A stretch of DNA of 64,000 bases, from the IMG/VR virus record IMGVR_UViG_3300043434_000210, positions 3,059 through 67,058 of that record. The stretch is one strand, 5' to 3'. Shown piece after piece: positions 3,493 to 25,157 of the stretch; the stretch's first letter is position 1; each line of letters opens with the position of its first letter. The translations under genes and the position numbers were made by a program. The notes under the pieces were generated by a model. That model was not told where the DNA came from. It did not search any database and was given only the letters and a program-made list of their open reading frames with translations. The DNA is from a virus.

Positions 3493-5907
3493 TCAATCTT
3501 TTTTTGGTTTTGGCTCAGTTTTGCTGGCAGGTTGTCTCGCTTTCGCAACATCTCCTGCTAACTTGAAGCCTTGAACTACATCTGCTGCAGCCTTCTTGCT
3601 CTTCTCAAGCTCGAGTTTCTCGCGCTCAAGATCGATTTGGTCAGCCTTAGCAGCGGCTTCCATTGCCACTTTCTTCTCTTTAATGTCGACGTCTTTCTGT
3701 TTAATCGCCAACTCTTGCTGCTGCAACTGCAACACTGGGTCTTGTGCGTTCTGCTGAGCTTGCTGCTGAGCAACCATCGCTTGAGACTGTGCCAATACCT
3801 GCGGTGCAGCCATCGCCAACATCTTAGAAACTTCTTTCTCCAAGTCCTCTGGCATCTCTTGGTCAGGCAACGGCAACTGCACGCCCATCGCAGCCTCCAT
3901 CTTCTGACGGTATGCGTAACCAACGTGCTCGGCAATATGCGCAGACAAGGCCGCTTGAATAGCTTGCGCTTGCGGATTCTGCCCAATTAACTGCTGAACC
4001 AGCGGGTCTTGCATAGCTGACTGGTGAACGGCAATATGAGCCTCGTGGTCTTGATAAATGAATGCTTTGAGTGGTTTGCCCTTCAATGCGTTCATGTTTT
4101 CTGTCACGGGGTCTTTCGGCTTTTGATCGTCTTCCAAAGGGACCAACTTGTCAGCGTTCTTAATTCCCAAAACGTCCAGCATTTGCCTGTGTAATTGGGG
4201 TAAGTCGTAAATCTGTGGGGCGCTTTGTGCCAACTGAATAACGGCTTGGTACTGGACCACTCTTTGTGAAAGAGTGGCTGCGTTAGGGTCTGATACAGGC
4301 AACACATCGACCATTGAGTAGTCGGAACGTTTTGCTCGTGCACTGCCTTTTTCTGGCTCATAGTTATAGTCCTCGTCCGTGTAGTCAGCAATGATTTTGG
4401 CAAGCAGCTGCAACTCTTGTTTCAATGAGTAGTGCACGCGTGCCTGCACAGCAGACATCACTTTCAAAGTTCTTTCCAAAATAGCCAATGTCGTACCAAC
4501 AGGTGCGTTGGCTGACATATCGCTAATCTTCATGTCAGAAGTAGCCGCAAAGCGACGACCTTCTTCAACAATCTTGTCCATCAAACCAGCTAAAACTGAG
4601 CTTGGCTCCTTGTATGGAAGTGGCAAGATGTTGTCTCTAATATTGCCTGACCCAAGATCGACGTCTCTAAACTCACCCGGAGCGATTGGGGTATCGTCTC
4701 CCTTGATTCGCAGACCCCTAGCCTTAAGACCACCAGGTAGATTAGAAAGAGTACCGGCATCAACCAACTGACGCATAATGCTAGTCGCACTCTTGGCGAA
4801 GCCACCGATGAGATGGAAAAGACCAAAACCGTATGCGCCATAACCTGGAATGTACTGATAATGAACAAAATGCTGTCGCTTAAGTTTAAGTGGATCATCT
4901 TCGTTCCAGTTTCTGCGGATAGATAAAATATCATTAGTACCGCGCACCATTGTCACTACGTATGGCAACGCAATACCTGTCTTTTCACCATCTTCTTCGT
5001 CTTCAAAACCTGGCAAGTCCAAGTCAACGTGAATCTCATACACTTCAAAACGATCGTCGTAACTAGCGTTGAAGCCTGTTTCCTTGTCTTTCTTGTCCTG
5101 AATATCTGACTTGAACTTCTGCGGTTCGCCCAACTCTACGTCCATGTAGAAGCCGGCGTGCATCAAACGGTTCAACTCGTTTTTAGTTTTACGCATGATG
5201 TGTGTCACACGTGGCGAAGCCATAATCTCGCTTGTGCCGTAAGGAATAATGATGTCTTCAGCAGGAATAAACACAGACACCTGGCGACCTAGACCTGGGT
5301 CAAAGTACACTTTCTTGAACGCTGAACCGGCTGATGGCAAGTTCCACAACATGCGCTCGTGTTCATTACGGAACTCAGGCATTTTCTCTGTTAGTTGGTA
5401 GTTCATGTCTTCTTCAACACGTACCGCTGCCTGCTGTTTAGCTGGAGTCTCTTTACCAACAATCTTTGTGCGTACAGGCCCCTTGGCTGGGAATGTCTCC
5501 ATGATGGTTTCTGACTGGAAGCGTACAACTGCTTCCGTAATCATCGGGTGGAACACACCGCAAGCGCCATCCCATGGTTCTGTGCGCTCTTCAAACTTCA
5601 AGCCAAGGAGGGTGATACCGTCCTTGTACATATCTTCCCAATCTTTACGGGCAGCTTTGTCGTCGTTAATGCTGCCTTCCAAATCACCCGCCAACTCTTG
5701 CAAGTCGCCTGGGTTCATGTCTTCCGCTAAGTTCTTATTGAACTCATCTTCGGGCATCGCATCTGGGTCAATCTCAATCTCCATGCCATCCATACCGATG
5801 GTCACTGATTCTGGGTCCTCAATCTCGATCTCGATATCAGGTTCCTCGTTACCCACAATGGCCTCGAGTCCTTGTGGTGCCTGATACAGTCCTTTATCTA
5901 CTGGCAT
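3493..5907 (-). CDS. Portal protein
   Basis: 804 aa directly downstream of TerL; PWDGACGVFHP, GSAFKKVY and YGFGL motifs; Gln-rich C-terminal coiled-coil barrel as in podoviral portals. Confidence 0.88.
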   Translation of the reverse strand: MPVDKGLYQAPQGLEAIVGNEEPDIEIEIEDPESVTIGMDGMEIEIDPDAMPEDEFNKNLAEDMNPGDLQELAGDLEGSINDDKAARKDWEDMYKDGITLLGLKFEERTEPWDGACGVFHPMITEAVVRFQSETIMETFPAKGPVRTKIVGKETPAKQQAAVRVEEDMNYQLTEKMPEFRNEHERMLWNLPSAGSAFKKVYFDPGLGRQVSVFIPAEDIIIPYGTSEIMASPRVTHIMRKTKNELNRLMHAGFYMDVELGEPQKFKSDIQDKKDKETGFNASYDDRFEVYEIHVDLDLPGFEDEEDGEKTGIALPYVVTMVRGTNDILSIRRNWNEDDPLKLKRQHFVHYQYIPGYGAYGFGLFHLIGGFAKSATSIMRQLVDAGTLSNLPGGLKARGLRIKGDDTPIAPGEFRDVDLGSGNIRDNILPLPYKEPSSVLAGLMDKIVEEGRRFAATSDMKISDMSANAPVGTTLAILERTLKVMSAVQARVHYSLKQELQLLAKIIADYTDEDYNYEPEKGSARAKRSDYSMVDVLPVSDPNAATLSQRVVQYQAVIQLAQSAPQIYDLPQLHRQMLDVLGIKNADKLVPLEDDQKPKDPVTENMNALKGKPLKAFIYQDHEAHIAVHQSAMQDPLVQQLIGQNPQAQAIQAALSAHIAEHVGYAYRQKMEAAMGVQLPLPDQEMPEDLEKEVSKMLAMAAPQVLAQSQAMVAQQQAQQNAQDPVLQLQQQELAIKQKDVDIKEKKVAMEAAAKADQIDLEREKLELEKSKKAAADVVQGFKLAGDVAKARQPASKTEPKPKKD

Positions 5908-5916
5908 TTTCTATCC

Positions 5917-7464
5917 TTAATAATACGCCGCACGTCTGCGGCGGTAGGCCAATGGCTCGTCAGCCATATCGCTATCTAAGTTAATAAACCCGCCTTGGCG
6001 GTAGCGCAATAGCGCTTGTGTGCAAGTATCCACGAAGTCGTCGTGTTCGCCAACAGGAAACGCTGCAATTTCTTCAATTACGTCTCGTGCCCACCTCGTG
6101 TCTGGTGCCCAGACTTTGCCAGAAGCAAACAAGTCGCTGACCGCGTTGAGACGCGCAATCTTGTCGTTACCTCGGCTGGGGGTGAACTCTTGGACGGGGA
6201 TACCCATTCGCCGGAGCTCTTGTATAAGAGGACCACCGGCAGCTTTTTTCTCGACAATGAACGCATCAGGCTCCCACTCCTTGTAGTGTTTTAGTGCAAC
6301 TGTCTTGAGTTCTGGGAACGCCATCCTGTCCTTGAAGGCATCGAGGAGTATGAGGTTCGGACTGTTGTTATCCTCCTCGTTGTACCAGACTCCCCACGTG
6401 GTGCAAGCACTATAGTCACTTGTCGTTTTCGTCTCATGCGCCGTATCCCAACTCTGAATCACATAATCACACCGAGGCGGGTCTTCTGCATCCCACACTC
6501 GCCAATCTGACCGCTTCACCAACGCCGCACTGTCCGCCGTCGGCTTCTGCATGTACTGCGCGTTCCAATATCGTGGGTCTAGTGACGCCTTTGTGTTCTT
6601 TAGTGCAGCGAGCGGCCACTGAGCTGGCCACAGCGACTTCTCGTCCTCAGTGTCCTCGTGCAGGATGGCCGGCAACTCAACTATCTCCCATGGAATAGTG
6701 TCTGGGTTTTTAATCTGGTAGTCAATGAGCCGCCCTGTCAGGTCAAGTAGTGACCAACGCGTCATGATAATTATGATGGCACCGCCCGGCATCAGACGCT
6801 GTAACGGACCGGTCTGGAACCATGACCACGCCGTGTCGAACGCCAAGCGACTGTTACTCTTTACGTCTTGTTCAGAGTGTGGATCGTCAATGACAAACAA
6901 GTCAGCACCACGACCTGCAAGAGCGCCGCCCACACCAGCGGCATAATACTGTCCGCCTGCTCCAGTAGACCACTTACCAGCCGCCTTCTGGTCATCTGCC
7001 ACCATTGTTTCTGGAAAAACTTCTTTATATTCATCGCTATCAATCAAGTTACGTACCCGACGTCCAAAGTCTTCTGACAGAGACGCCGTATGTGTGCCCA
7101 TAATAATCTTTTTCTCAGGGTATTTACCTAAGAAGAACGCAGGAAACAGGTAAGAGCTGAACTCAGACTTACCCATACGCGGTGCTATGTTGATAATTAC
7201 GCGCTTTTTCTTGCCATCAATCACATCTTGGAAGATTTTTGCCAACCGTTTGTGGTGTGGACCCACTTTAAACCCCGGATACACCTTTCTTGCGAAGGCA
7301 ATCGGGTCTGTCTGTGCCATTTTTAGCTCGTGCCGACGCTCTTTCTCTTCCAAATCACTAAGAAACTTGAGTTTTTCTTCTTTTGTCATGTGTGGCAGGG
7401 CTCTTTGCGCCGCCATCGCCTCTTCTGGAGTCAGACAAGTGAAGTCTTTTAGCTCAGTTGTCAT
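5917..7464 (-). CDS. terL: Terminase large subunit
   Basis: Walker A APRMGKS, Walker B FVIDD, coupling motif MTRW, nuclease residues SWDTA / DYSA / IVEKKAAG / HDDFVD. Confidence 0.95.
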   Translation of the reverse strand: MTTELKDFTCLTPEEAMAAQRALPHMTKEEKLKFLSDLEEKERRHELKMAQTDPIAFARKVYPGFKVGPHHKRLAKIFQDVIDGKKKRVIINIAPRMGKSEFSSYLFPAFFLGKYPEKKIIMGTHTASLSEDFGRRVRNLIDSDEYKEVFPETMVADDQKAAGKWSTGAGGQYYAAGVGGALAGRGADLFVIDDPHSEQDVKSNSRLAFDTAWSWFQTGPLQRLMPGGAIIIIMTRWSLLDLTGRLIDYQIKNPDTIPWEIVELPAILHEDTEDEKSLWPAQWPLAALKNTKASLDPRYWNAQYMQKPTADSAALVKRSDWRVWDAEDPPRCDYVIQSWDTAHETKTTSDYSACTTWGVWYNEEDNNSPNLILLDAFKDRMAFPELKTVALKHYKEWEPDAFIVEKKAAGGPLIQELRRMGIPVQEFTPSRGNDKIARLNAVSDLFASGKVWAPDTRWARDVIEEIAAFPVGEHDDFVDTCTQALLRYRQGGFINLDSDMADEPLAYRRRRAAYY

Positions 7465-8068
7465 CTTCTGCCGGTGGGTTGTCTTGCAAATCTTTGTCTA
7501 AATCAATAGCCTCTACATCAACAACGTCGGCCTTGCCCATATATTTGCCAAGCTTCTCGCGGATTCGCGCCTCTAGCTCTTCATCAGTAACTTCTGCCTT
7601 TTTAACCTCAACGCGCTCAGTAAACAGGGCCACTTCCGTGACTTTACCCAACATATCTAGCGCCTTGAGACGTATTCTGGCATCAGGATGGTCGGTCTCT
7701 TTGACAATTTTTGCCACCGCCATGGATCTAAGCTCTTCGGCCTGCTGGACAAACTGCCACTGATATTGAGAGAGCATCGCTACGCTTGAACGTACCTCTT
7801 CCGGTAGCTGCATCTGCAAGATTTTGTCTTTAGCGTCGGGTGCCTGGGTTACTAATGACTGGAATGTATCTGAAACTTTTTGTTGTTGTGCTGCCGTAAG
7901 AATCGCTTCGTCTTCTTTGGCAATCTCGGCTAGCCACTCGGTGGTGCCTATCTGTGAATTCAATGTTTCTGCTGCGGATAGTTTTGCTAACGGAACAAAG
8001 TCGCCTACGCCAGACTCTATGTCTGGCACATAATCTGCTGCCGCTGCTAAGACCAAATGATCTAACAA
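7454..8068 (-). CDS. Probable terminase small subunit
   Basis: 204 aa overlapping the TerL start; helical RLKALDMLGK...LFTER segment. Start codon uncertain. Confidence 0.6.
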   Translation of the reverse strand: MLDHLVLAAAADYVPDIESGVGDFVPLAKLSAAETLNSQIGTTEWLAEIAKEDEAILTAAQQQKVSDTFQSLVTQAPDAKDKILQMQLPEEVRSSVAMLSQYQWQFVQQAEELRSMAVAKIVKETDHPDARIRLKALDMLGKVTEVALFTERVEVKKAEVTDEELEARIREKLGKYMGKADVVDVEAIDLDKDLQDNPPAEDDN

Positions 8069-8122
8069 ACTACCTCCGCTGTTGCGCCGTGGGTGTGGCG
8101 TATGTCAGGGAGTATACACACA

Positions 8123-8152
8123 ATTCTAAAAAAGAAAACCCCTCCCTCGCAA
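8123..8152 (-). promoter_or_regulatory. Possible sigma70-type promoter for the packaging/head operon
   Basis: Minus strand TTGCGA (8152-8147), 18 bp spacer, TAGAAT (8128-8123). An alternative -10 TATACT lies at 8116-8111. Confidence 0.35.
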
Positions 8153-8155
8153 GCT

Positions 8156-8191
8156 CAAAAAGAAAACCCCCCGGTAAGGGGCCGGGGGGTT
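8156..8191 (-). terminator. Intrinsic terminator ending the predicted sRNA
   Basis: 10-bp perfect inverted repeat AACCCCCCGG (8165-8174) / CCGGGGGGTT (8182-8191), 7-nt loop, followed on the minus strand by a U-rich tract (TTTTCTTTTT). Confidence 0.8.
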
Positions 8192-8263
8192 AAGGGGTGG
8201 TTTCGCTCTCACACTCAACCAAGGAGACGTGCGCCAGACAAACGAAAGGAAAAGCCGACGCAC
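8157..8263 (-). ncRNA. Predicted ~105-nt trans-acting antisense sRNA complementary to early-gene RBS leaders
   Basis: Bounded by a promoter (8299-8270) and a terminator. The 5' hairpin GUGCGUCGGC-UUUUCCUUUCGUUU-GUCUGGCGCAC begins at the expected +1, and its G-U pairs work only on this strand. The loop complements the leaders at 10985, 12457, 15844 and 18644. Confidence 0.7.
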
Positions 8264-8269
8264 AAACAG

Positions 8270-8299
8270 AGCTTACCAGAGTTCACCAGAATGTGTCAA
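8270..8299 (-). promoter_or_regulatory. sigma70-type promoter of the predicted sRNA
   Basis: Minus strand TTGACA (8299-8294), 18 bp spacer, TAAGCT (8275-8270) preceded by TGG (extended -10). Confidence 0.65.
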
Positions 8300-8330
8300 C
8301 GCGTATCAACGGATATCAACGAGACTCAAA
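8291..8330. repeat. Four 10-bp phased direct repeats (core TCAAC)
   Basis: atgtgtcaac gcgtatcaac ggatatcaac gagactcaaa; the first copy overlaps the -35 element. Confidence 0.65.
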
Positions 8331-8494
8331 TAGCTGTCAAGAATTAGACAAGGTGGGGTGGAATTTTTACAAAATTTGACATGGAATTATTTTGCGGTTG
8401 TGGAATAGTGATCTATGGTCAATGCCATGCCATGCAGTTTTCGTGGGGGTCGGTGGTGGGTGGGGTCAAAACAGACGGCTTTTAACCTACGGAG

Positions 8495-8503
8495 TGGTAA
8501 AAT
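8495..8503 (+). promoter_or_regulatory. Extended -10 promoter for the early arm
   Basis: TGGTAAAAT (TGn plus TAAAAT) about 85 nt upstream of the first rightward gene; no good -35. Confidence 0.5.
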
Positions 8504-8548
8504 TTAATCATTGGAAATCGGGGAGAAATCTCCCCAAACCAATCTGAC

Positions 8549-8574
8549 GCCCACACAGTTTGTGGGCTTTTTTT
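8549..8574 (+). terminator. Intrinsic terminator/attenuator in the early leader
   Basis: GCCCACA-cagtt-TGTGGGC followed by T7, immediately before the RBS of the first early gene. Confidence 0.75.
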
Positions 8575-8587
8575 ATTGGAGTTTATT

Positions 8588-8989
8588 ATGAACAAGACTT
8601 TTACATACACACAATTTGCCTACGCTGTAGGTGCAAACGAACGCTTGACATACGAAGCGAGCAAGGTATTCCACGAGGAATACATGGCAAACGAGGATAA
8701 GGCTTTCAGAGCAAGAATGAGAGCCGATTGGGTTGTGAGCTATGTCGCTGGCAATCTCAAGCTCTCGCAAGCCAAAGCAATCAAGGTATGCGAGATGACT
8801 AGGGTAGAACGCAACGCCCTAGACACCGAGCTTGAGAAGGCTGTGAACCGAGCAGGCAAGCAGTTCGGCTACCATGTTGTGCGAGCCGAGCAAGGCACGA
8901 GCAAGCAAACTGACCTAGTCGCACAGGCTCTTGCACTATACGCAAAGATGTCAGGCAGTCAAAAGCGTAGCTTCAAGGCTCAACTTTGA
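8588..8989 (+). CDS. First early gene, hypothetical protein
   Basis: ORF 8576-8989; GGAG RBS places the start at ATG 8588 (MNKTFTY...). Confidence 0.75.
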   Translation: MNKTFTYTQFAYAVGANERLTYEASKVFHEEYMANEDKAFRARMRADWVVSYVAGNLKLSQAKAIKVCEMTRVERNALDTELEKAVNRAGKQFGYHVVRAEQGTSKQTDLVAQALALYAKMSGSQKRSFKAQL

Positions 8990-9014
8990 TATCAGGGAGA
9001 TTTCTCCCCAACAA

Positions 9015-9081
9015 GTTTGACAGAATTCCTGTGTGGTCGTGCAAGCGAGAGCTTTCATGGCTATTCGGTTTTCTGTCAAAC
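9015..9081 (+). other. Long intergenic RNA stem-loop (RNase III-site-like)
   Basis: 11-bp perfect outer stem GTTTGACAGAA/TTCTGTCAAAC, G-U-rich inner stem GUGGUCGUG/CAUGGCUAU, capped by AAGC-GAGA-GCUU (GNRA tetraloop). Confidence 0.7.
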
Positions 9082-9104
9082 ATCTCTCACAAAAGGAATC
9101 AATC

Positions 9105-9266
9105 ATGGAATCACTCGCACAAAAACTACGCAAAGCGTATGACCTAATCGCTACTGCGGATACATCAGACATAGATGCCTACTATCTAGCCGTTGAAGAA
9201 GCACAGGGCTACATAGCCGAGGCATTAGATATGGCAGACAACTTCACCAACGAATACAGGAGCTAA
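9105..9266 (+). CDS. Small acidic hypothetical protein
   Basis: ORF 9033-9266; AAGGA RBS favours ATG 9105 (MESLAQKLRKAY...). Confidence 0.65.
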   Translation: MESLAQKLRKAYDLIATADTSDIDAYYLAVEEAQGYIAEALDMADNFTNEYRS

Positions 9267-9268
9267 CC

Positions 9269-9385
9269 ATGCATCAACGAACCACAATCCAAATCATGTG
9301 GGCGAACCGCCACACGACAGACGGCAAAAGACTACACAGGTTCACACGCAAGGCAATCAACCAATCTCACAGGAGAATCAAATGA
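9269..9385 (+). CDS. Small basic hypothetical protein (38 aa, below the track cutoff)
   Basis: AGGAG RBS; MHQRTTIQIMWANRH...RRIK; its stop overlaps the next start (ATGA). Confidence 0.45.
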   Translation: MHQRTTIQIMWANRHTTDGKRLHRFTRKAINQSHRRIK

Positions 9386-9615
9386 AATCATTTATCGTAG
9401 CCCACTTCCACAATGGCGTAATCATTGAGTTCAAGCGTAAGCCCAAGGCTCAAACACCACAACCACATACACTCAATGTGGCAACCAACGCAGTCAAGAA
9501 ACTAAACGCCCTACTCGGGGAGGTTTCTCCCCAAGACCATTGGGCTTGCGTATCCATAGACAAGCTCGCCGAGCTAAACAAGAGGGGTTTATGGCAACAA
9601 GTTGCTGAGAAGTGA
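9382..9615 (+). CDS. Hypothetical protein
   Basis: AGGAGA RBS before ATG 9382 (MKSFIVAHF...); contains a palindrome copy read as GEVSPQ. Confidence 0.6.
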   Translation: MKSFIVAHFHNGVIIEFKRKPKAQTPQPHTLNVATNAVKKLNALLGEVSPQDHWACVSIDKLAELNKRGLWQQVAEK

Positions 9616-9626
9616 TTTTGGACACT

Positions 9627-9928
9627 TGTCCGCTTATTATTATGCGTAGACACAACCTAATCACCCTGCGAGCCTTTCAGTATATGGCACTGTCCACTAT
9701 CACACATATATTATTATATATAATAGATATAGATATATATAAATAAGTATATGTTTAAGTAGACATAGGTCAGCATTGAAAACCTTTTTAGGTTTAAAAA
9801 TTCTGAAAAAAGGTAAGATATGTATACACAACTTGACCAAACCCCTATAAACTATAGGCTCGCAGGGCGTCTACATCTGTGCGTCCTCTTCATCTCAATA
9901 AGCGGACAGAAAGGTAATTTAGTGGACA
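9627..9928. other. Putative replication origin: AT-rich core flanked by nested inverted repeats
   Basis: Nearly pure A/T run at about 9706-9760; 12-bp inverted repeats 9627-9638/9897-9908 and 9664-9675/9856-9867; 9-bp inverted repeat 9691-9699/9920-9928. Confidence 0.55.
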
Positions 9929-10620
9929 CTTTTTATACTGACGGGGAGGTTTCTCCCCAAGATGATTGGGTTATCACACCTGTATCCAAACACCTGACTC
10001 ATGCAATGTGCGTCAAGTGTGGTGAGATTAAACCTATTGGGCGATTCAAACACAGGCTCACGCTTGAAGAAACTGCCAAGCGATTAGATAAGAACATAGC
10101 CACGACACGCATGGAAGTAAACAGTAAATACTGCACGCCATGTAGGAGAAAAGAGATACCACGCAAGAGCCTACGACAGAAGAGTCGTGATGAAATTAAG
10201 CGTGCTGTTGCGTATGGTGATTTGAATATCGTGCAAGCCAAGATAGAGATAGCCAAGCGTGATGAGGATATGAACCTCAAGAAATCAGCAGGCGTCAAGC
10301 GTAGGTGGGAACGCATACGCAACGAGAAAGCCAAGGCATACGGCAAGCAACTACAAGAACAGGTCAATCGCAAGGCGTCCTACTTTCATGCTAACAAGCA
10401 CAACGGGGCAGATACTACACTCATCACCTTCGCACAGACCGACTACACCTATGCTCGCCTAGCCAAACAAACCTTAATGAGAGGCGTAGCTAGTGGGGAG
10501 GTTTCTCCCCAAACGACCAAGCTAGAAGACGCATACACATACGAGCAACGACAAGAACTACAACGGCTCAAGGCACAGATACCACATGAAATACTAACCA
10601 AGCAAAGGAGAAGGAAGTGA
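9820..10620 (+). CDS. Basic hypothetical protein with CxxC...CxxC (true start probably downstream)
   Basis: CVKC...CTPC zinc-binding pairs, Lys/Arg-rich. The N-terminal part overlaps the origin-like inverted repeats. Confidence 0.6.
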   Translation: MYTQLDQTPINYRLAGRLHLCVLFISISGQKGNLVDTFYTDGEVSPQDDWVITPVSKHLTHAMCVKCGEIKPIGRFKHRLTLEETAKRLDKNIATTRMEVNSKYCTPCRRKEIPRKSLRQKSRDEIKRAVAYGDLNIVQAKIEIAKRDEDMNLKKSAGVKRRWERIRNEKAKAYGKQLQEQVNRKASYFHANKHNGADTTLITFAQTDYTYARLAKQTLMRGVASGEVSPQTTKLEDAYTYEQRQELQRLKAQIPHEILTKQRRRK

Positions 10621-10714
10621 GCAAGCAAAAAGTAGATTGGCTATTAGTTACATTGGTGTTCGGTGGGTTATACCTGCTCGGACATTTGATCGCGTTCATT
10701 TACAGGGAGGTCGT

Positions 10715-10930
10715 ATGTTGCTAGATACAAAGACAGGCAAGCCCTTGTCCGAGGGCATGGAGATACAACGCAAGGACTATCGTGGCTTCAAGAAACGATA
10801 CAGGGTTCACGAGATACTGCCTAATGCGGTGGTTTTAATTTTAATCGGAGAATCAGCTCTCGCTAACCTATATCTCACAGTCCCTATGGCTGAGCTATCT
10901 CAATATAGCTTGGGCGTAACGTTGTTTTAA
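10715..10930 (+). CDS. Hypothetical protein
   Basis: ORF 10637-10930; GGAGG RBS favours the ATG at 10715 (MLLDTKTG...). Confidence 0.55.
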   Translation: MLLDTKTGKPLSEGMEIQRKDYRGFKKRYRVHEILPNAVVLILIGESALANLYLTVPMAELSQYSLGVTLF

Positions 10931-11002
10931 CGGGGAGATTTCTCCCCAAGATGTTTCACAAAGCAGTAGACAGTTAACCACAACCAAACGAAAGGAATCA
11001 TT

Positions 11003-12424
11003 ATGTTAAGGTTAATAGATAGATATCGTGAGCTCAGAGAGCACACAGGGAACGACAGGCCTATGTCTAACCCACGTTTTGTATCTGCCATGCGTGACGA
11101 GATACGCACTAACTTGGCAGGCGGTCCTCATGCTTGGCTCAAGAATCGTGCACCATCAATGTATAGATATGGTGATGTGCGTGAGCAGTTGGAGTATGGG
11201 TTCAATGGTCATGTGGGTAGAATGACTGAGTGGGTGCATCAGCAGAGAGCCAATCGCAAAGTGTTCGGTGGGTTCATGGGCGATGCGATACGCCAAGGGG
11301 ATTCAGACAGGGCGTTGGCGTTACTCAATGACCACACCAGTATCCGTGACGGCTCACGTGTTGATTGGACAGACCTGCTCAATGATAAGTTCACAGGCTA
11401 CTACCACTCATGCGAGGACTGCAACACCATCACGAGTGAAGACGATGGTAGCACCACCAGCTACGACAATTGGGTGTGTCAGGACTGTCTTGACAACAAC
11501 TACAGATGGTCAGACCGAGCTGATGGATACGTGACCAATGATGACTACGAAGATGAAGAGGAGGAGGACGAAGACAACGGCGTCATCGGTAGTTACCACC
11601 ACAGTAAGCGTCATGTGTGCCACATACCTAGCAAGTATGACCACATAGATAAGCCTGCCGTTCTGCTTGGGCTTGAGCTAGAGATGGAGTGTAGCGACAG
11701 TTATACCCGTAGCGACAAGGCTCAAGAACTGTATGACAAGATACACAAATACAACGTCATCAATGGCAGGTCATATCCATACGCGTTCTTTGAGGAGGAC
11801 GGCTCGCTTAACTATGGCTTCGAGATGGTGACTAGCTACACAGGTCTTGATGTCCATGCCGAGCAGTTGTTGGTGTTCAAGGATAACCCTGTGCGTGGGC
11901 TACGCAGTCACGACACTAGCAGTTGTGGTCTACACGTTCACGTCAGTCGTGCAGGTATGACGACATTCCATGCGTGTAAGTTGGCGTTCTTCATTCACGA
12001 TAGCGGTAACCAACGCTTATTGAGAGCCGTAGCACGTAGGTCTAACAGTCGCCATGCCAAGATGGTCAACAAGAAAGCGGATTCACAATGGATACGCAAT
12101 GCCAAGGTTGATGGTATCCAACGCTTGAATGACGACAGGTATGAGGCGGTCAACTTTCAGAATGGCAACACCGTTGAGTTCCGTCTGTTCAAGGGCACGC
12201 TACGCTACGAGTCAATCATGGCGTGCTTGGAGTTCTCATACATCACATGGTTCTTCGCTCGTGATATGGGTGTGACTGAGCTGACCGAGGATAAGTTCCT
12301 TGAGTATATCTGTCAGCCAAGCAAGCTCAAGCACACTAAGTTCTTGCGTGACTACTTGCGGTCTAAGAACTTCAGCCTACCTATCAAGGACAGACAACCC
12401 AAGCAAGATGCAGTTGAAGTCTAA
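11003..12424 (+). CDS. Putative amidoligase (glutamine synthetase-like COOH-NH2 ligase) with N-terminal Zn ribbon
   Basis: GLELEME, EEDGSL, GFEMVT, SCGLHVHVS, RYEAVN and TVEFRLFKGT motifs; CEDC/CQDC pair and an acidic linker upstream. Confidence 0.85.
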   Translation: MLRLIDRYRELREHTGNDRPMSNPRFVSAMRDEIRTNLAGGPHAWLKNRAPSMYRYGDVREQLEYGFNGHVGRMTEWVHQQRANRKVFGGFMGDAIRQGDSDRALALLNDHTSIRDGSRVDWTDLLNDKFTGYYHSCEDCNTITSEDDGSTTSYDNWVCQDCLDNNYRWSDRADGYVTNDDYEDEEEEDEDNGVIGSYHHSKRHVCHIPSKYDHIDKPAVLLGLELEMECSDSYTRSDKAQELYDKIHKYNVINGRSYPYAFFEEDGSLNYGFEMVTSYTGLDVHAEQLLVFKDNPVRGLRSHDTSSCGLHVHVSRAGMTTFHACKLAFFIHDSGNQRLLRAVARRSNSRHAKMVNKKADSQWIRNAKVDGIQRLNDDRYEAVNFQNGNTVEFRLFKGTLRYESIMACLEFSYITWFFARDMGVTELTEDKFLEYICQPSKLKHTKFLRDYLRSKNFSLPIKDRQPKQDAVEV

Positions 12425-12475
12425 CGGGGAGGTTTCTCCCCAACACGTTCTCACAAACAAACGAAAGGAAATACT

Positions 12476-13543
12476 ATGTGCTTATTAGTTACACAACCTG
12501 CTAACGCCCCTGCTCTCACAGACGCATGGCTCTCTGACTTCTACTCAGCTAACGCTGACGGCGTGGGTGTGATGTATGCCCAAGACGGCGAGCTTGTCGT
12601 TGAGAAGATACTGCCTGTTGATGAGAAGGACTTCATTCACTTCTACCGCAACCACATTGAGGGTAAGGAATGTGCGTTCCACCTACGCATGAAGACGCAT
12701 GGCAATATTGACATGGAGAACTGCCACCCATACGAGGTGTTGAATCATAGCGAGCATGGCATCAGCTTATGGCTCATGCACAACGGCGTGCTGTCTACGG
12801 GTAATGACGCTGACACTACTAAGTCAGACACATGGCACTACATTCGTGACTACCTCCGCCCTATGCTGACTGACAACCCTGAGTTTGCGTTTCACCCTGC
12901 GTTCGCAGACATTGTCGGTAGCCACATCGGTAGCAGTAACAAGTTCGTGCTGATGGACAACAACGGCAGACAAGTCACAGTCAACGAAGATGCAGGCGTC
13001 TATTGGGGTGGGCTATGGTTATCCAATACCTACGCATGGTCAGCAAGTAAGTCAGCTACCAAGGACTTCAACCCTGACTACGAGATCGCAGTTGAGCAGG
13101 TCAATGAGACGCCGACCAAGTATACGTATTCATACAAAGGCGGTTATGGGTATGGCACGTATGGCAAGGGGTATGGCTACTCAGGCACATGGGACAACGA
13201 TGACTACTATGACGACCCTGTCGGTGGCTACGTTACATCTAAGGTAGGTCAGAACTACGCTGATGAGATAGCGGTGCTTGAGATGGAGGTTGATGATGTC
13301 AGCACGCAGTTTGGTATCGCAGGTATGACACGTGCTGAACGATTCAGTCGCCGTCAGATATGGAACTTCATTGATAAGTTTGGCTTTGACTCATGGCTTG
13401 ACGTTGCATATATGTTGATTGATACGGACATTGATGAGGACGCATACATCAAGCTGATGTCTGACTTTGCGTATGCACGTGAGATGTTTCCGTTCCTGAT
13501 TAAAGAAGAGCAGAAGCTTGCTCGTGGTGAGTGGTTGAACTAA
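12476..13543 (+). CDS. Class II (Ntn) glutamine amidotransferase-like protein
   Basis: N-terminal Met-Cys, NADGVG, HLRMKTHG, NCHPY, HNGVL and SDT motifs; Tyr/Gly-rich linker and acidic C-terminal domain. Confidence 0.88.
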   Translation: MCLLVTQPANAPALTDAWLSDFYSANADGVGVMYAQDGELVVEKILPVDEKDFIHFYRNHIEGKECAFHLRMKTHGNIDMENCHPYEVLNHSEHGISLWLMHNGVLSTGNDADTTKSDTWHYIRDYLRPMLTDNPEFAFHPAFADIVGSHIGSSNKFVLMDNNGRQVTVNEDAGVYWGGLWLSNTYAWSASKSATKDFNPDYEIAVEQVNETPTKYTYSYKGGYGYGTYGKGYGYSGTWDNDDYYDDPVGGYVTSKVGQNYADEIAVLEMEVDDVSTQFGIAGMTRAERFSRRQIWNFIDKFGFDSWLDVAYMLIDTDIDEDAYIKLMSDFAYAREMFPFLIKEEQKLARGEWLN

Positions 13544-13555
13544 GAAAGGAGTTGT

Positions 13556-13717
13556 ATGTTTGAAAACGATGGCAATACCAAGTTTTTCTTGGACAGCGAG
13601 GAGGTGACGTGCGAGAAGTTCAATGACTTCTACTACGCCCACGATACGGGGTGGTGTGAAGACGTTGACGAGTATGGCACGCTACGCCTAACTATTTTTA
13701 CTGATGATGCAAACTAA
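13556..13717 (+). CDS. Small acidic hypothetical protein (53 aa, below the track cutoff)
   Basis: AAGGAG RBS; ATG 13556 to TAA 13717 fills the gap between neighbours. Confidence 0.55.
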   Translation: MFENDGNTKFFLDSEEVTCEKFNDFYYAHDTGWCEDVDEYGTLRLTIFTDDAN

Positions 13718-13732
13718 CTGAAAGGAAATTGT

Positions 13733-13963
13733 ATGACTAACGCAGAAGTATTCTTAATCGCATGGGCGGTAGTGGCTACCTTGTTGGCGGTGTATTACCA
13801 ACAGAAACACAAACAAGTTGAGATGAAGTATGACAACACAGGCAACCTACTATGTGATGTTGTGGTGGGTGATGTCAAGCCTAGAAAGAACAACGAGGGC
13901 TTTTGGGTTGTAGAGAATAGCCACACACGCATCGTATTTAAACGCAGAGAAATGGAGCTTTAA
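13733..13963 (+). CDS. Small membrane-anchored hypothetical protein
   Basis: N-terminal hydrophobic helix VFLIAWAVVATLLAVYY; GAAAGGAAA RBS. Confidence 0.65.
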   Translation: MTNAEVFLIAWAVVATLLAVYYQQKHKQVEMKYDNTGNLLCDVVVGDVKPRKNNEGFWVVENSHTRIVFKRREMEL

Positions 13964-13964
13964 T

Positions 13965-14399
13965 ATGGATACATCAACACTAGTAACAGGCGTATCAGGT
14001 GCAGTATACGCACCCGTGGATACATCACCGCAAGCAACCGCAGTCAATCAAGCAATGTCTTTGATTCAGGAGGGGCTGGCTCAACTTACTACACTCATCA
14101 ACTCTTTAGACAAACGCATCGGGGAGAATCCTCCCCAAAATGTAGATTTGCAGACAACTGTGGATTTGGTGTTGCATCAGTCTACTTGGTTTGATAACAA
14201 GGTCTCTGAGTTTCTCAAGAGCAAAGACGACCTCATTGAGAACGTCATTGAAGATGTTGTGCGTGACCGCATGGATACTGCCGTCAATGACTGGTTCAAC
14301 AACGAGTTCCAACTGAGTGACTACGTAGATATTGAAGACTTAGTCAAAGAAGTTGTGGAGGAGAAGTTACGCCGAGCAACAATAACTGTGGATATATAG
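13965..14399 (+). CDS. Hypothetical protein
   Basis: 144 aa, coupled to its neighbours; contains the last palindrome copy (GENPPQ). Confidence 0.65.
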   Translation: MDTSTLVTGVSGAVYAPVDTSPQATAVNQAMSLIQEGLAQLTTLINSLDKRIGENPPQNVDLQTTVDLVLHQSTWFDNKVSEFLKSKDDLIENVIEDVVRDRMDTAVNDWFNNEFQLSDYVDIEDLVKEVVEEKLRRATITVDI

Positions 14400-14407
14400 G
14401 AGGTAAT

Positions 14408-14806
14408 ATGCCAAGCACATGGGGCTACTATCGTAGCCTAGAATCAGGTGAAGCTGAAGAGCTCACCGAGCAGAACGGACACCCTTGCGTTGAGGGCGAG
14501 TTCTACTGCACAAACGAGTATGGCGATACGCCTGCGTGGGTAGAGATTACCTTTGCTGACGAGGGCGTGCTCATGATGAAGATGGCTAGAGGTTTAGTCA
14601 ACGACATCAAAGAATTCCAAGCGATACAGATGAGTGCCGATGACATTGGGCTCAGCATCAATATCAGCGAGGAGTGGGGCAACCATTCAGGCGTGCGTCT
14701 CAAGATATACGGCAAGCACGCATGGATTGAGGTATTCGCCAAACACACTAGCGAGATGCTAGAGATAGATGTATCAGAGCAAGTTAAACACATTATCGGA
14801 GGATAA
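14408..14806 (+). CDS. Hypothetical protein
   Basis: 132 aa, AGGAGG RBS. Confidence 0.65.
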   Translation: MPSTWGYYRSLESGEAEELTEQNGHPCVEGEFYCTNEYGDTPAWVEITFADEGVLMMKMARGLVNDIKEFQAIQMSADDIGLSINISEEWGNHSGVRLKIYGKHAWIEVFAKHTSEMLEIDVSEQVKHIIGG

Positions 14807-14807
14807 A

Positions 14808-15764: not shown

Positions 15765-15773
15765 GAAAGGGGG

Positions 15774-15802
15774 TTGTCAAACATTTGATTCGGTCGTATT
15801 AT
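15774..15802 (+). promoter_or_regulatory. sigma70-type promoter of the AAA/vWA operon
   Basis: TTGTCA, 17 bp spacer, TATTAT; followed by the 12-bp direct repeat TATTAGTAGTAA at 15800 and 15820. Confidence 0.7.
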
Positions 15803-15859
15803 TAGTAGTAAATAACAAGTATTAGTAGTAACTCTCACAACACAACGAAAGGAAGTCAT

Positions 15860-16978: not shown

Positions 16979-16987
16979 GGGGGTCAT

Positions 16988-18160: not shown

Positions 18161-18179
18161 TCAAATGAAAGGTAACAAA

Positions 18180-18632
18180 ATGAACGATATCGAAAAGAAA
18201 GTATTAGGTAACATGGAAAACGCTTTGAAAGCGTTGAAGTTGAAGTATGCAATCATCGACAGCGATGGTGAAGTGCATGGCGATTTGGAAGTAGTTGTTC
18301 CAAAGAAACGCAGAGGTTCTGTCTACGGGCATGGCGTTATGTCTAACTACATCAAGCCATACTTCAACACATTCCTTGACAACACAAGCAAGACTATCCC
18401 TGCAGGTCAGTATGACGTAGAGATTGTTCGTGGTTCAGTATGCAACATGGCAACTAAGTTGTTCGGTGCAGGTAACTACAAAACAACCCTAACAAACGAT
18501 CGAAAAGGTGTTGTGGTTACACGCTTGAACAAAGACGTAGCGGCTTTCTTAAAAGACAGCACAGTTGACGACATGTTCTCTTTTGAAGAGATTGAAGTGC
18601 CACAACGTCAACCACGCACGCTCTTCCGTTAA
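18180..18632 (+). CDS. Hypothetical protein
   Basis: ORF 18057-18632; GAAAGG RBS favours ATG 18180 (MNDIEKK...). Confidence 0.6.
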   Translation: MNDIEKKVLGNMENALKALKLKYAIIDSDGEVHGDLEVVVPKKRRGSVYGHGVMSNYIKPYFNTFLDNTSKTIPAGQYDVEIVRGSVCNMATKLFGAGNYKTTLTNDRKGVVVTRLNKDVAAFLKDSTVDDMFSFEEIEVPQRQPRTLFR

Positions 18633-18662
18633 CACTCTCACAAACAAACGAAAGGAAAACTT

Positions 18663-19535: not shown

Positions 19536-19544
19536 GGAGGGCGT

Positions 19545-21445: not shown

Positions 21446-21454
21446 AAAGCGCCT

Positions 21455-23727: not shown

Positions 23728-23729
23728 AA

Positions 23730-25133: not shown

Positions 25134-25157
25134 GGGTAATTAACCAAGGAGAAACGA

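What the first reader, a model, noticed from the sequence alone, without database searches (positions are those of the whole stretch)
8157..8299. Phage-encoded sRNA whose hairpin loop is antisense to the shared RBS leader of several early genes
Seen in sequence: on the minus strand, TTGACA-N18-(TGG)TAAGCT places +1 at about 8263. Exactly there begins the stem-loop GUGCGUCGGC[UUUUCCUUUCGUUU]GUCUGGCGCAC, whose G-U pairs form only on this strand. A single-stranded linker and an intrinsic terminator follow. The loop region (plus strand 8238-8253, ACAAACGAAAGGAAAA) matches the RBS regions of the amidoligase (13 nt, 10985-10997), glutamine amidotransferase (15 nt, 12457-12471), MoxR AAA (11 nt, 15844-15854), DUF3150-like gene (16 nt, 18644-18659) and the 13733 gene (9 nt, 13720-13728). 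The linker complements CTCTCACA or TCTCACA, which lies just upstream of the RBS at 9084, 9365, 12449, 15832 and 18635, and AACCAAGGAGA, the RBS of the 25158 gene (11 nt, 25142-25152). Established: P1 C4, P4 CI and P22 Sar antisense RNAs regulate a single locus each. Inference: this is a trans-acting, multi-target translational repressor that shuts off an early regulon spread over about 16 kb, acting either as an early-to-late switch or as an RNA-based immunity factor in a phage with no integrase in view.
Basis: partly seen in the sequence, partly recalled or inferred. Interest (0 to 1): 0.93.

Follow-up and report, generated by a model that had tools for sequence, protein, structure and literature searches.

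The report
Phage small RNA mirroring ribosome sites
An uncultured 67-kb lake phage and dozens of relatives keep a roughly 105-base non-coding RNA gene beside their packaging genes whose exposed loops mirror the ribosome-binding leaders of the phage's own early genes, so it probably throttles their translation, although the RNA has never been observed.

Summary
On the minus strand, 8299-8157 holds a sigma-70-like promoter, a 5' hairpin with a 14-nt anti-Shine-Dalgarno loop, a single-stranded linker and a strong intrinsic terminator. All quoted matches to early-gene leaders exist.

The unit is a real, conserved RNA gene. A terminator-ended unit with an anti-SD motif lies next to the terS-like gene in 42 of 49 distinct relatives. 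Across 14 variants the hairpin stem covaries (7 of 9 pairs compensatory, 95% paired) while the loop is invariant. The unit is inverted in 41 of the 42, so it is an autonomous, probably trans-acting gene and not a late-operon leader.

Accessibility-based prediction puts plus-strand (early-arm) leaders in the top 10 of 80 start sites. This is more than shuffled or SD-core-preserving controls give, and it repeats in a 64% relative. Lineage-specific leader boxes match lineage-specific sRNA boxes in several cases. Strict loop-leader co-variation was not found.

No transcript, timing or repression data exist. The immunity reading is unlikely: no integrase and no prophage relatives were found.

It works like the CU-rich double-hairpin sRNAs of Burkholderia and Neisseria, but it fails their Rfam models. 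This scan has noted similar anti-SD phage RNAs in other genomes.

The parts
8294..8320 (-). Three 10-bp-phased GTTGAYA repeats (8320, 8310, 8300). The last one contains the -35 TTGACA (8299-8294) of the sRNA promoter.
   Evidence: Read. The same phased repeats stand upstream of the sRNA in L026 and L021/L113. Binding by a regulator is inference.
8270..8278 (-). Extended -10, TGG-TAAGCT. The predicted +1 is G at 8263.
   Evidence: In window, L026, L013, L021 and L022, a -10 hexamer plus 6 nt plus G coincides with the first base of the hairpin. The window -10 was not called by the scanner.
8229..8263 (-). Hairpin 1. Stem 8263-8254 pairs with 8239-8229. Loop 8253-8240 is UUUUCCUUUCGUUU (anti-SD plus UUCGUUUG).
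   Evidence: Fold. Covariation across 14 variants: 95.2% of cells paired, 7 of 9 pairs with compensatory change, 0 of 500 shuffles as high, slid controls 18-52%. Nine of the 10 invariant columns lie in the loop.
8192..8228 (-). Linker holding a second anti-SD, UCUCCUU (8227-8221), and UGUGAGAG (8213-8206) in a weak hairpin.
   Evidence: In L028, L029/L081 and L076 the homologous UCUCCU and GUGAGA motifs sit in hairpin loops whose stems differ by compensatory changes (seen).
8157..8191 (-). Intrinsic terminator: stem 8191-8165, then UUUUCUUUUU.
   Evidence: An equivalent terminator on the anti-SD strand is present in 44 of 49 distinct relatives' upstream regions.
8111..8117 (-). GTATACT box about 45 nt upstream of the terS-like start. 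Inferred -10 of the late (packaging/structural) promoter.
   Evidence: Conserved in window, L001 and the L002 group and in further relatives. In the inverted clade it lies about 20 nt from the sRNA -10, on the other strand. Its role as a promoter is inference.
12449..12471 (+). Leader of the GATase-like gene (start 12476): TCTCACA box plus ACAAACGAAAGGAAA. Best predicted target.
   Evidence: total -16.9 kcal/mol, covers -20..-4. The orthologous leaders in L001 and L002 keep the motif.
18635..18659 (+). Leader of the DUF3150 gene (start 18663): CTCTCACA plus the 16-nt loop complement.
   Evidence: total -16.7 kcal/mol.
10985..10997 (+). Leader of the amidoligase gene (start 11003), 13-nt loop complement.
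   Evidence: -14.3 kcal/mol. Amidoligase orthologues are among the top predicted targets in G003 (rank 1) and G001 (rank 11).
15832..15854 (+). Leader of the AAA (MoxR-like) gene (start 15860): CTCTCACA plus an 11-nt loop complement.
   Evidence: -11.4 kcal/mol.
25142..25152 (+). RBS of the 25158 gene, AACCAAGGAGA, complementary to the linker.
   Evidence: -10.2 kcal/mol. The 27574 leader is a similar linker target (-10.9 kcal/mol).
9085..9091 (+). TCTCACA box in the leader of a small gene starting at 9105. A second copy at 9365-9371 lies before the 9382 gene.
   Evidence: The orthologous leader 'ctgtcaaacatcTCTCAC' is also present in L026 and L076.

Best explanation
Bases 8263 to about 8157 on the minus strand encode an autonomous, non-coding small RNA of about 105 nt.

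Anatomy and transcription:
- It is transcribed by host sigma-70 RNA polymerase from its own extended -10 promoter and ended by an intrinsic terminator.
- It displays two CU-rich anti-Shine-Dalgarno stretches in unpaired regions: the 14-nt loop of a 5' hairpin, and a linker. It also carries non-SD specificity boxes (UUCGUUUG in the loop, UGUGAGAG in the linker).

Proposed action:
- It acts in trans by base pairing across the ribosome-binding regions (-20 to -4) of several of the phage's own plus-strand (early/middle) mRNAs. These include the amidoligase, GATase-like, AAA and DUF3150 genes, and the 25158 and 27574 genes.
- Pairing would occlude the 30S subunit and lower translation of these genes.
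- It works like the CU-rich 'double-hairpin' sRNAs of Betaproteobacteria, and functionally like an RNA counterpart of the T4 RegA translational repressor.

Shown:
- The gene's anatomy and its strand.
- Its conservation and its structural covariation.
- Its independence of orientation.
- The excess complementarity to early leaders.

Inferred:
- That it is transcribed.
- That it pairs in vivo, and that the outcome is repression.
- When it acts during infection.
For: 1. Anatomy.

2. Conservation.
- 92 relatives' loci were fetched through the neighbouring terS-like protein, so the sampling was blind to the RNA. They collapse to 49 distinct upstream regions.
- 42 of the 49 have a terminator-ended unit with an anti-SD pentamer. 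Two have a terminator without the motif, and 5 have none.

3. RNA structure under selection.
- 14 hairpin variants give 95.2% of 126 cells paired and 7 of 9 pairs with changes on both sides. No shuffle of 500 reaches this, and slid controls give 18-52%.
- 27 of the 126 cells are G.U. These would be A-C mismatches on the other strand, which fixes the transcribed strand.
- The loop is invariant.

4. Autonomy.
- The unit is co-directional with terS only in the window and L080. It is inverted in place in 41 of 42 relatives.
- The -10/+1 geometry is kept in both orientations.

5. Non-coding.
- The 45-codon frame from 8263 stops after 15 codons in L026.

6. Targets in the window.
- The top 10 of 80 start regions are all plus-strand (32 plus, 48 minus). 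Mean energy is -6.95 for plus and -3.59 kcal/mol for minus.
- Six sites reach -10 kcal/mol or better, against 0.88 +/- 1.1 in 60 loop/linker shuffles (0 of 60 reach 6).
- With both anti-SD cores kept in place the control gives 1.07 (0 of 60 reach 6; top-5 sum matched in 1 of 60).

7. Replication in G001, a 64% relative with an inverted unit.
- Seven sites reach -10 or better, against 0.92 +/- 1.2 in shuffles (0 of 60).
- The early-minus-late difference is -3.55 against -1.55 +/- 0.63 (0 of 60).
- The top 14 of 107 start regions in G001 and the top 13 of 98 in G003 are on the early strand.

8. Lineage-specific boxes.
- TCTCACA leader boxes occur in lineages whose sRNA carries GUGAGA (window, L026, L029/L081, L076). 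They are absent from the early strands of G001 and G003, whose sRNAs lack it.
- The L013 GATase leader TAATCAATCA matches the L013 linker, and the L022 amidoligase leader AAACCATCAACA matches the L022 linker.
- The own linker gives the longest, or tied longest, exact complement in 5 of 8 leader sets.

9. Precedent: CU-rich unpaired stretches covering RBSs of many mRNAs in Burkholderia double-hairpin sRNAs and in Neisseria NmsRs (PMC5688073, passages read).
Against: - No transcript evidence exists. The only public run holding a relative is kept as contigs, and its 'RNA' label is a guess.
- Strict co-variation fails for the main loop. The 61-65% clade has ..CCUCCUUCGUUUG (a 2-nt bulge) while its leaders keep CAAACGAAAGGAA. 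The perfect complement of that loop occurs only at the sRNA gene itself.
- In the whole-sRNA matrix, the own sRNA is the best partner for its own leaders in only 2 of 8 sets. The window-type sRNA pairs best with most foreign sets.
- The single best energy is not exceptional. Shuffles reach -15.4 against -14.3 observed on the same coarse grid.
- A plain duplex model without accessibility shows no early/late difference (-26.07 against -25.58, P = 0.41).
- Early leaders are A/C-rich and the sRNA is G/U-rich, so part of the strand preference is compositional. Shuffled controls still give -0.9 to -1.55.
- The relatives are phylogenetically clustered, so the box co-occurrence may reflect only one or two evolutionary events.
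- The window -10 hexamer is weak (3 of 6).
- A sigma-70 promoter suggests early synthesis, which sits awkwardly with a late shut-off role.
- Host mRNAs could be the real targets. The host is unknown.
Confidence: 0.5

Rival explanations
1. A general anti-Shine-Dalgarno sRNA aimed mainly at host mRNAs (host shut-off or metabolic rewiring). The matches to phage leaders would be a by-product of shared SD-plus-A/C-rich leader composition.
For: - The only feature universal to all 42 units is a CU-rich anti-SD pentamer.
- In the largest clade the loop is a perfect CCUCCU 16S-like anti-SD and fits the phage's own leaders less well than the window's loop does.
- The Burkholderia 'toxic' sRNAs with such motifs inhibit growth (PMC5688073 and PMC4603805, passages read).
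- There are weak sub-threshold Rfam resemblances to RF02278 and RF02837.
Against: - The non-SD part UUCGUUUG is invariant in 14 variants, and its complement CAAACGAA recurs in early leaders of every lineage examined.
- Controls that keep the anti-SD cores lose most predicted targets.
- Late-gene RBSs of the same phage, which also carry SDs, are predicted much less well.
- Host targets cannot be examined because the host is unknown.
Confidence: 0.2
2. A cis-acting late-operon leader. A promoter and a short terminated transcript sit in front of terS/TerL/portal, with late expression by antitermination, as with lambda PR'-6S RNA-tR' and Q.
For: - In the window and in L080 the unit lies directly upstream of, and co-directional with, the terS-like, TerL and portal genes.
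- The terminator is strong.
Against: - In 41 of 42 relatives with the unit it points away from terS, while the hairpin loop and geometry are conserved.
- A conserved GTATACT box lies downstream of the terminator, so the late operon has its own promoter-like element.
- Nothing Q-like or N-like was looked for.
Confidence: 0.06
3. The shared motif is a double-stranded DNA site for a phage or host DNA-binding protein. The hairpin would be incidental, or the RNA would serve another role such as a protein sponge or replication primer.
For: - The same 13-16-bp word recurs at several places on one DNA strand in the window.
- Phased GTTGAYA repeats nearby suggest protein binding in the region.
Against: - The stem covaries through G.U intermediates, which is an RNA-level constraint.
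- When the unit is inverted, the DNA word flips relative to the leaders, but the RNA stays antisense to them.
- The word always lies at -20..-4 of start codons, overlapping the SD.
Confidence: 0.05
4. A non-functional relic: a duplicated early leader next to a terminator.
For: - The plus strand at 8206-8253 reads like a split copy of the 25-nt leader at 18635-18659.
- No expression data exist.
Against: - The unit is conserved down to 41-50% protein identity of the neighbouring gene.
- The stem covaries while the loop is invariant, and the unit survived an inversion together with a working-looking promoter.
Confidence: 0.02

Closest known systems
Burkholderia 'double-hairpin' / 'toxic' small RNAs (Rfam RF02278: ncS03, ncS05, ncS27, ncS62) and Neisseria NmsRs (PMC5688073, passages read; PMC4603805, passages read)
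   Same: Short RNAs of 57-92 nt made almost entirely of a 5' hairpin and a terminator hairpin. [quoted passage not shown] Many mRNAs are predicted as targets, with 55-80% of predicted sites at start regions.
   Different: Those are chromosomal bacterial genes regulating host metabolism. This one is phage-encoded, sits at the early/late divergent control region, and carries extra non-SD boxes that match the phage's own leaders. The window scores 22.3 bits against a gathering score of 50, so it is not a member.
Burkholderia anti-hemB RNA (Rfam RF02837)
   Same: A 5' hairpin with a UCUCCUCC-type loop plus a terminator. It gives weak matches in the window (21 bits), L036 (25.1 bits) and L078 (23.6 bits).
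   Different: All scores are far below the gathering score of 49.5. The resemblance is in architecture only.
T4 RegA translational repressor (PMC3014915, passages read)
   Same: A virulent phage represses about 30 of its own early/middle mRNAs by competing with the ribosome at translation initiation regions.
   Different: RegA is a 122-aa protein recognising A/U-rich unstructured sites. Here the proposed effector is an RNA that reads leaders by base pairing.
P1/P7 c4, P22 Sar and lambda OOP antisense RNAs (review PMC12197685, sections 2 and 7 read)
   Same: Phage-encoded RNAs that block ribosome binding by pairing. In c4 the complementary sequences are presented in loops.
   Different: Each controls one locus, is encoded at or beside its target, and serves lysogeny or immunity. 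Here the targets lie 0.8-19 kb away in at least 6 leaders, and the phage shows no lysogeny genes.
VpdS (phage VP882), PreS/LPR1 (lambda) and SviR (PLE satellite) (PMC12197685 sections read; abstracts of 10.1101/2024.10.31.621285 and 10.1101/2022.04.08.487710)
   Same: Trans-acting sRNAs encoded by phages or satellites, with several targets, some of them phage mRNAs.
   Different: They were found experimentally in temperate phages or a satellite, and VpdS and PreS depend on Hfq. None is described as aimed at a leader tag shared by a block of the phage's own early genes.
Lambda PR'-6S RNA-tR' late leader (6S is named in the review PMC12197685; the mechanism is recalled)
   Same: In the window, a promoter and a short terminated transcript lie just upstream of the packaging genes.
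   Different: The orientation is not conserved: 41 of 42 relatives are inverted.

Membership tests
Rfam RF02278 Betaproteobacteria toxic sRNA | Covariance-model score at or above the curated gathering score (50 bits) | tested here: not met
   Window 8160-8229(-) scores 22.3 bits, and the match covers only CGUCUCC plus the terminator. No hit at E <= 1 in 14 relatives' loci. No gathering-level hit.
Rfam RF02278 Betaproteobacteria toxic sRNA | Two hairpins with CU-rich, RBS-complementary stretches in unpaired regions | tested here: met
   Fold. The loop and the linker are the accessible interaction sites. This shows likeness of mechanism, not membership.
Rfam RF02837 anti-hemB | Covariance-model score at or above 49.5 bits | tested here: not met
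   21.0 bits in the window, 25.1 bits in L036 and 23.6 bits in L078.
Trans-acting base-pairing sRNA (general class) | Own promoter and intrinsic terminator, with no conserved reading frame | tested here: met
   Promoter geometry is conserved in 5 lineages. The terminator is shown. The reading frame is not conserved. Promoter activity itself is inferred.
Trans-acting base-pairing sRNA (general class) | Conserved secondary structure supported by covariation, with a conserved single-stranded seed | tested here: met
   7 of 9 pairs compensatory, loop invariant.
Trans-acting base-pairing sRNA (general class) | Seed complementarity to several unlinked mRNAs beyond chance | tested here: met
   window; G001.
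Trans-acting base-pairing sRNA (general class) | Seed and targets change together in relatives | tested here: inconclusive
   Against: (own sRNA best in 2 of 8). For: (box co-occurrence; own linker best or tied in 5 of 8).
Trans-acting base-pairing sRNA (general class) | The RNA is expressed and changes target expression in a pairing-dependent way | not testable with these tools
   No RNA holder is listed, and the one run is contigs only.
Cis-encoded phage antisense RNA (Sar, OOP, c4 type) | Encoded opposite or adjacent to its single target, with full complementarity | tested here: not met
   There is no conserved gene on the opposite strand. The complementary leaders lie at 9085-27569.
Lambda-type late leader (PR'-6S-tR') | Short terminated transcript upstream of, and co-directional with, the late operon, kept so among relatives | tested here: not met
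   Co-directional only in the window and L080. Divergent in 41 of 42 relatives.

The most novel reading that the evidence does not exclude
An RNA counterpart of T4 RegA. A virulent phage lineage would address a whole block of early and middle genes with bipartite leader tags: the SD-proximal word CAAACGAAAGGAA plus a lineage-specific upstream box such as TCTCACA, TAATCAATCA or AAACCATCAACA. One small RNA would read these tags through its hairpin loop and its linker. In most relatives the sRNA promoter is interlocked back-to-back with the late promoter, so the transcriptional early/late switch and the translational shut-off of early messages would be a single device. Newly acquired genes, such as the AAA-DUF3150 cassette that is absent from relatives, would join the regulon simply by acquiring the tag.
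Probability: 0.3. Interest if true: 0.8.

Novelty: new variant of a known kind. Interest (0 to 1): 0.62.

Why it matters
Phage-encoded small RNAs are only beginning to be catalogued. The studied cases are mostly from temperate phages and control one locus or host genes (review PMC12197685, sections read).

Here, comparative evidence alone defines a conserved, structured sRNA family in uncultured, apparently virulent freshwater phages. Its exposed sequences mirror the ribosome-binding leaders of the phage's own early genes.

If it acts as proposed, temporal control of phage translation could be run by a single RNA, where T4 uses a protein such as RegA. Leader 'tags' would then define a regulon that new genes can join.

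The pairing is directly testable with reporter fusions in E. coli, even though the host is unknown. This scan has noted similar anti-SD RNAs in other phage genomes (unchecked), so the phenomenon may be general.

I found no paper describing such a self-directed multi-target phage sRNA in the searches. These cover only the held open-access library.

Tried and rejected
- blastn (distant mode) of 7400-9400 against 50,697 phage records gave no match.
- Rfam at gathering thresholds found nothing in the window or in 12 relatives' loci.
- Expression: no RNA holder is listed. One run (X1) is labelled RNA only by a guess and is kept as contigs. Laying it on 5000-20000 showed contigs of a 90-99% relative. 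One 513-nt contig spans 8616-8167, with 121 other letters in place of 8338-8395. Contigs cannot show ends, strand or level, so this is not evidence either way.
- Plain RNAduplex without accessibility gave implausible long duplexes and no early/late difference. It was replaced by an accessibility-corrected window scan.
- Own-versus-foreign matrix with whole sRNAs: the own sRNA is best in 2 of 8 leader sets (L026, L022). There is no clean co-evolution.
- Linker-only matrix: the G003 linker could not be extracted by my rule and its row is empty, so 8 rows were evaluated.
- The orthologous-leader search by tblastn with strict filters returned only 5 distinct leader/sRNA pairs.
- The script stopped with an error after L076, so L026 was not processed there.
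- The terS-like alignment against one genome per 185,579 species found no relative. No host could be inferred.
- No tRNA genes were found. No integrase or resolvase was found.
- Rows dropped before the count of 92 loci: L064, L116, L117 and L118 (terS N-terminus cut off) and L120 (33% identity over residues 113-189 only). Many loci are the same contigs held in two collections; these were collapsed to 49 distinct upstream regions.
- Of the 20 pattern hits, 12 are sRNA loci of relatives and 8 are unrelated hits without the hairpin and terminator. I printed 12 of the 20. The other 8 are contigs already seen.
- No supplementary files of the papers were consulted. The target lists and figures of PMC5688073 that I did not see might refine the comparison.
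Full report
WHERE WE ARE.

The window is bases 3059-67058 of a 67,058-base IMG/VR virus record rated 100% complete. The record carries a terminal direct repeat of about 140 nt.

Bases 8069-8587 form the divergent control region of the phage.
- To the left, on the minus strand, lie a 204-aa terS-like gene (7454-8068, TTG start), the large terminase (5917-7464) and the portal (3493-5907).
- To the right, on the plus strand, run about 33 genes from 8588 to 31891. They include an amidoligase, a GATase-like protein, an AAA protein, a DUF3150 protein, DNA polymerase, helicase and primase.
- I call this plus-strand arm 'early' by position and content only. No timing data exist.

Read on the minus strand, the elements are:
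- TTGACA at 8299-8294, an 18-nt spacer, and TGG-TAAGCT at 8278-8270.
- Six further bases, then G at 8263, which is the first base of a 10-bp hairpin (8263-8229) with loop UUUUCCUUUCGUUU.
- A 37-nt linker containing UCUCCUU and UGUGAGAG.
- A terminator with stem 8191-8165 and a U-tract to 8157.

The fold has an MFE of -41 kcal/mol and z = -2.58.

The 13-mer CAAACGAAAGGAA with up to 2 mismatches occurs 8 times, against 2.0 expected (0 of 100 shuffles reach 8).

Two caveats apply.
- The -10 hexamer is weak (3 of 6), and the scanner did not call the promoter.
- TCTCACA is not over-represented as such: 9 against 8.9 expected. It is unusual only in strand (9 of 9 on the plus strand) and in place (5 of the 8 in the early arm lie within 35 nt upstream of a start codon, P = 1.2e-5).

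IT IS A REAL, CONSERVED RNA GENE.

Relatives were collected through the neighbouring terS-like protein, so the sampling was blind to the RNA.
- The scans returned 10 loci, then 52 from metagenomes and 45 from viral contigs using an alignment.
- 92 loci include the terS start. They collapse to 49 distinct upstream regions.
- 42 of the 49 carry a terminator-ended unit with an anti-SD pentamer within 75 nt upstream of the terminator. Two have a terminator without the motif (L073, L074).
- Five have none. L065 has no upstream sequence, L072 and L075 have a gene there, my finder missed an imperfect stem in L066, and L119 is only 26% identical.

Fourteen distinct variants of the 5' hairpin, aligned by MAFFT without reference to structure, gave the following:
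- 95.2% of 126 cells paired.
- 7 of 9 pairs with changes on both sides, and 25 doubly changed cells.
- 0 of 500 column shuffles as high.
- 18-52% paired when the 3' arm is slid by 1-3 columns.

Twenty-seven of the 126 cells are G.U, which would be A-C mismatches on the other strand. The transcribed strand is therefore the anti-SD strand.

Nine of the ten invariant columns lie in the loop (..C.UUCGUUUG). This pattern, a constrained loop on a freely covarying stem, is what one expects of a displayed recognition sequence.

In the sub-clade L028, L029/L081 and L076, the motifs UCUCCU and GUGAGA each sit in a hairpin loop whose stem differs between lineages by compensatory changes. An example is AAUCG/CGAUU against AAUCA/UGAUU. 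This was seen directly. With only three lineages I did not test it statistically.

The frame that opens at 8263 (45 codons) closes after 15 codons in the 78% relative, and the plus-strand frames are also broken there. No Rfam family reaches its threshold.

IT IS AUTONOMOUS, NOT A LATE-OPERON LEADER.

In the window and its closest relative (L001 = L026 = L080), the unit is co-directional with terS. That arrangement recalls lambda's PR'-6S-tR'.

In 41 of 42 relatives the same unit lies at the same place but inverted. It sits between the conserved early-promoter region and a conserved GTATACT box about 45 nt upstream of terS.

In both orientations a -10 hexamer, six pyrimidine-rich bases and a G that opens the hairpin are kept.

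A unit that survives inversion with its promoter, hairpin, linker and terminator intact, and whose RNA stays antisense to the early leaders while the DNA word flips, is best read as a trans-acting gene.

In the inverted clade the sRNA -10 and the GTATACT box lie about 20 nt apart on opposite strands. The two promoters probably cannot be occupied together. This is inference, and it does not tell which promoter fires first.

WHAT THE LOOPS MATCH.

A plain duplex model was uninformative. I replaced it with an accessibility-corrected scan of hybrid energy plus opening energies, applied to -35..+15 of 80 start regions.

Results for the window:
- The ten best sites are all plus-strand: 12476 (-16.9), 18663 (-16.7), 11003 (-14.3), 15860 (-11.4), 27574, 25158, 13733, 18180, 27162 and 23971.
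- The first four pair with the hairpin loop across -20..-4. The sites at 27574 and 25158 pair with the linker.

Controls:
- Six sites reach -10 kcal/mol. Sixty controls with loop and linker shuffled give 0.88 +/- 1.1, with a maximum of 5.
- Sixty controls that keep both anti-SD cores in place and shuffle only the rest give 1.07, with a maximum of 4. The complementarity therefore extends beyond the Shine-Dalgarno core.
- The single best energy is not exceptional: some shuffles are as good.

Replication in relatives:
- The same test on G001, a complete 67-kb relative whose terS-like protein is 64% identical and whose unit is inverted, gave 7 sites against 0.92 +/- 1.2 (0 of 60). The early-minus-late difference was -3.55 against -1.55 +/- 0.63 (0 of 60).
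- In G001 the top 14 of 107 start regions are on the early strand. In G003 the top 13 of 98 are.
- The amidoligase and GATase orthologues (confirmed by tblastn) recur among the better predicted targets. They rank 3 and 1 in the window, 11 and 8 in G001, and 1 and 10 in G003.

CO-VARIATION: MIXED.

It is not cleanly met.
- The leader word CAAACGAAAGGAA is kept in the 61-65% clade: 2-3 copies per genome on the early strand.
- The loop there reads UUUUCCUCCUUCGUUUG, which pairs with that word only through a 2-nt bulge.
- The perfect complement of this loop occurs nowhere in four full genomes except at the sRNA gene itself.
- In an own-versus-foreign matrix of eight sRNAs against eight leader sets, the own sRNA was best in only two.

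On the other side, the second, more variable contact does track lineage.
- TCTCACA boxes stand in early leaders of the window, L026, L029/L081 and L076, whose sRNAs carry GUGAGA. They are absent from the early strands of G001 and G003, whose sRNAs lack it.
- In L013 the GATase leader carries TAATCAATCA just upstream of CAAACGAAAGGAAA, and the L013 linker carries its complement just downstream of the hairpin.
- In L022 the amidoligase leader carries AAACCATCAACA, matching the L022 linker.
- In L081 the 3' tail of the sRNA is near-complementary to the SD-to-second-codon region of an early-strand 133-aa gene whose start follows a terminator-like sequence.
- The own linker gives the longest or tied-longest exact complement in 5 of 8 leader sets.

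These lineages are related, so the number of independent events is small.

MECHANISM AND ODDS.

I put about 0.85-0.9 on 'autonomous structured sRNA gene'. I put about 0.5 on the full statement that it pairs with RBS regions of the phage's own early and middle mRNAs and represses their translation.

The main rival, at about 0.2, is that host mRNAs are the chief targets. It is not exclusive of the main reading.

A 14-nt loop cannot form a 16-bp helix while its stem stays closed. Pairing would therefore start in the loop and spread by opening the stem, or be helped by the linker contact. This is inference.

Timing is open. A sigma-70-type promoter argues for early synthesis, while the interlock with the late box argues for coupling to the switch.

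The 'immunity' option is unlikely. There is no integrase or resolvase in the complete record, and no prophage relative was found.

COMPARISON WITH WHAT IS KNOWN.

It works like the Burkholderia double-hairpin 'toxic' sRNAs and the Neisseria NmsRs. Those are short RNAs with two hairpins and CU-rich unpaired stretches that cover the RBSs of many mRNAs (PMC5688073 and PMC4603805, passages read).

It is not a member of their Rfam family.
- RF02278 scores 22.3 bits against a gathering score of 50.
- RF02837 scores 21-25 bits against 49.5.

Functionally it would parallel T4 RegA, a protein that represses about 30 phage mRNAs at their initiation regions (PMC3014915, passages read).

Known phage RNAs either act on one adjacent locus (c4, Sar, OOP, aQ) or are Hfq-dependent sRNAs of temperate phages or satellites with host and phage targets (VpdS, PreS, SviR). 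The sources are the review PMC12197685 (sections 2 and 7 read) and two abstracts.

My four literature searches listed no paper on a virulent-phage sRNA aimed at a leader tag shared by its own early genes. The library covers open-access papers only.

Earlier notes of this scan describe similar anti-SD phage RNAs in other genomes. These notes are unchecked and are not independent evidence, but they suggest the pattern is recurrent.

VERDICT.

- Observation: confirmed.
- Interpretation: partly supported.
- Novelty: a new variant of a known kind, namely a phage-encoded CU-rich anti-RBS sRNA with self-directed, multi-leader complementarity.
- Interest: 0.62.

Noticed in passing
window 8519-8537, about 9000-9018 and about 12426-12443; also L001: GGGGAG(A)-N3-4-(T)CTCCCC palindromes followed by AA(C) recur in the early arm, one just before the 12476 leader. 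The copy near the early promoter is kept in L001. Their function is unknown; RNA processing or stabilising hairpins are possible.
   Followed up: no
window 8294-8340 (-); L026, and L021/L113 upstream of the sRNA: GTTGAYA repeats at 10-bp phase overlap the sRNA -35. Similar phased GTTGAT repeats precede the sRNA in L026 and L021, but not in the L030/L013-type relatives. This suggests a regulator acting on the sRNA promoter in some lineages.
   Followed up: partly
window 8376-8575 (+): The early side also has a TTGACA box, followed by a leader and a canonical terminator (8549-8567 plus a T-run) a few bases before the first early gene's RBS. A terminator at the same place is kept in relatives. 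It may be an attenuator or a second short RNA.
   Followed up: no
window 15860-19535 (+): Two genes flanking this block, the AAA gene (15860) and the DUF3150 gene (18663), have no tblastn match in L026, L013, L022, G001 or G003; the genes between them were not queried. Their leaders nevertheless carry the same 23-25-nt tag as the conserved GATase gene. These look like newly acquired genes with the regulon's leader.
   Followed up: partly
L029, L081, L048, L051-L053, 150-330 nt upstream of the terS start: A conserved stretch of about 90 nt (GGGGCCTAGATTT...GGCTTAAC.GCCCC) is shared by two distant clades. In L029/L081 it is preceded by a tRNA-like GGTTCGAATCC arm. No Rfam hit at gathering level. 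It may be another structured RNA.
   Followed up: no
window 8127-8146 versus 8157-8172: The 3' half of the terminator (AAAAAGAAAACCCC on the plus strand) is duplicated about 30 nt further on without its partner arm. It looks like a remnant of a tandem duplication between the sRNA and the late box.
   Followed up: no
G000 ends (outside and at the end of the window): The first and last 140 bases or so of the 67,058-b record are direct repeats, although the record is classed 'linear'. The assembly is probably circularly closed or terminally redundant.
   Followed up: no
window 32053-40680 (-): A 2875-aa ORF whose only PHROG matches cover its last 700 residues or so, in families of unknown function. 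It is the last gene of the long minus-strand arm.
   Followed up: no
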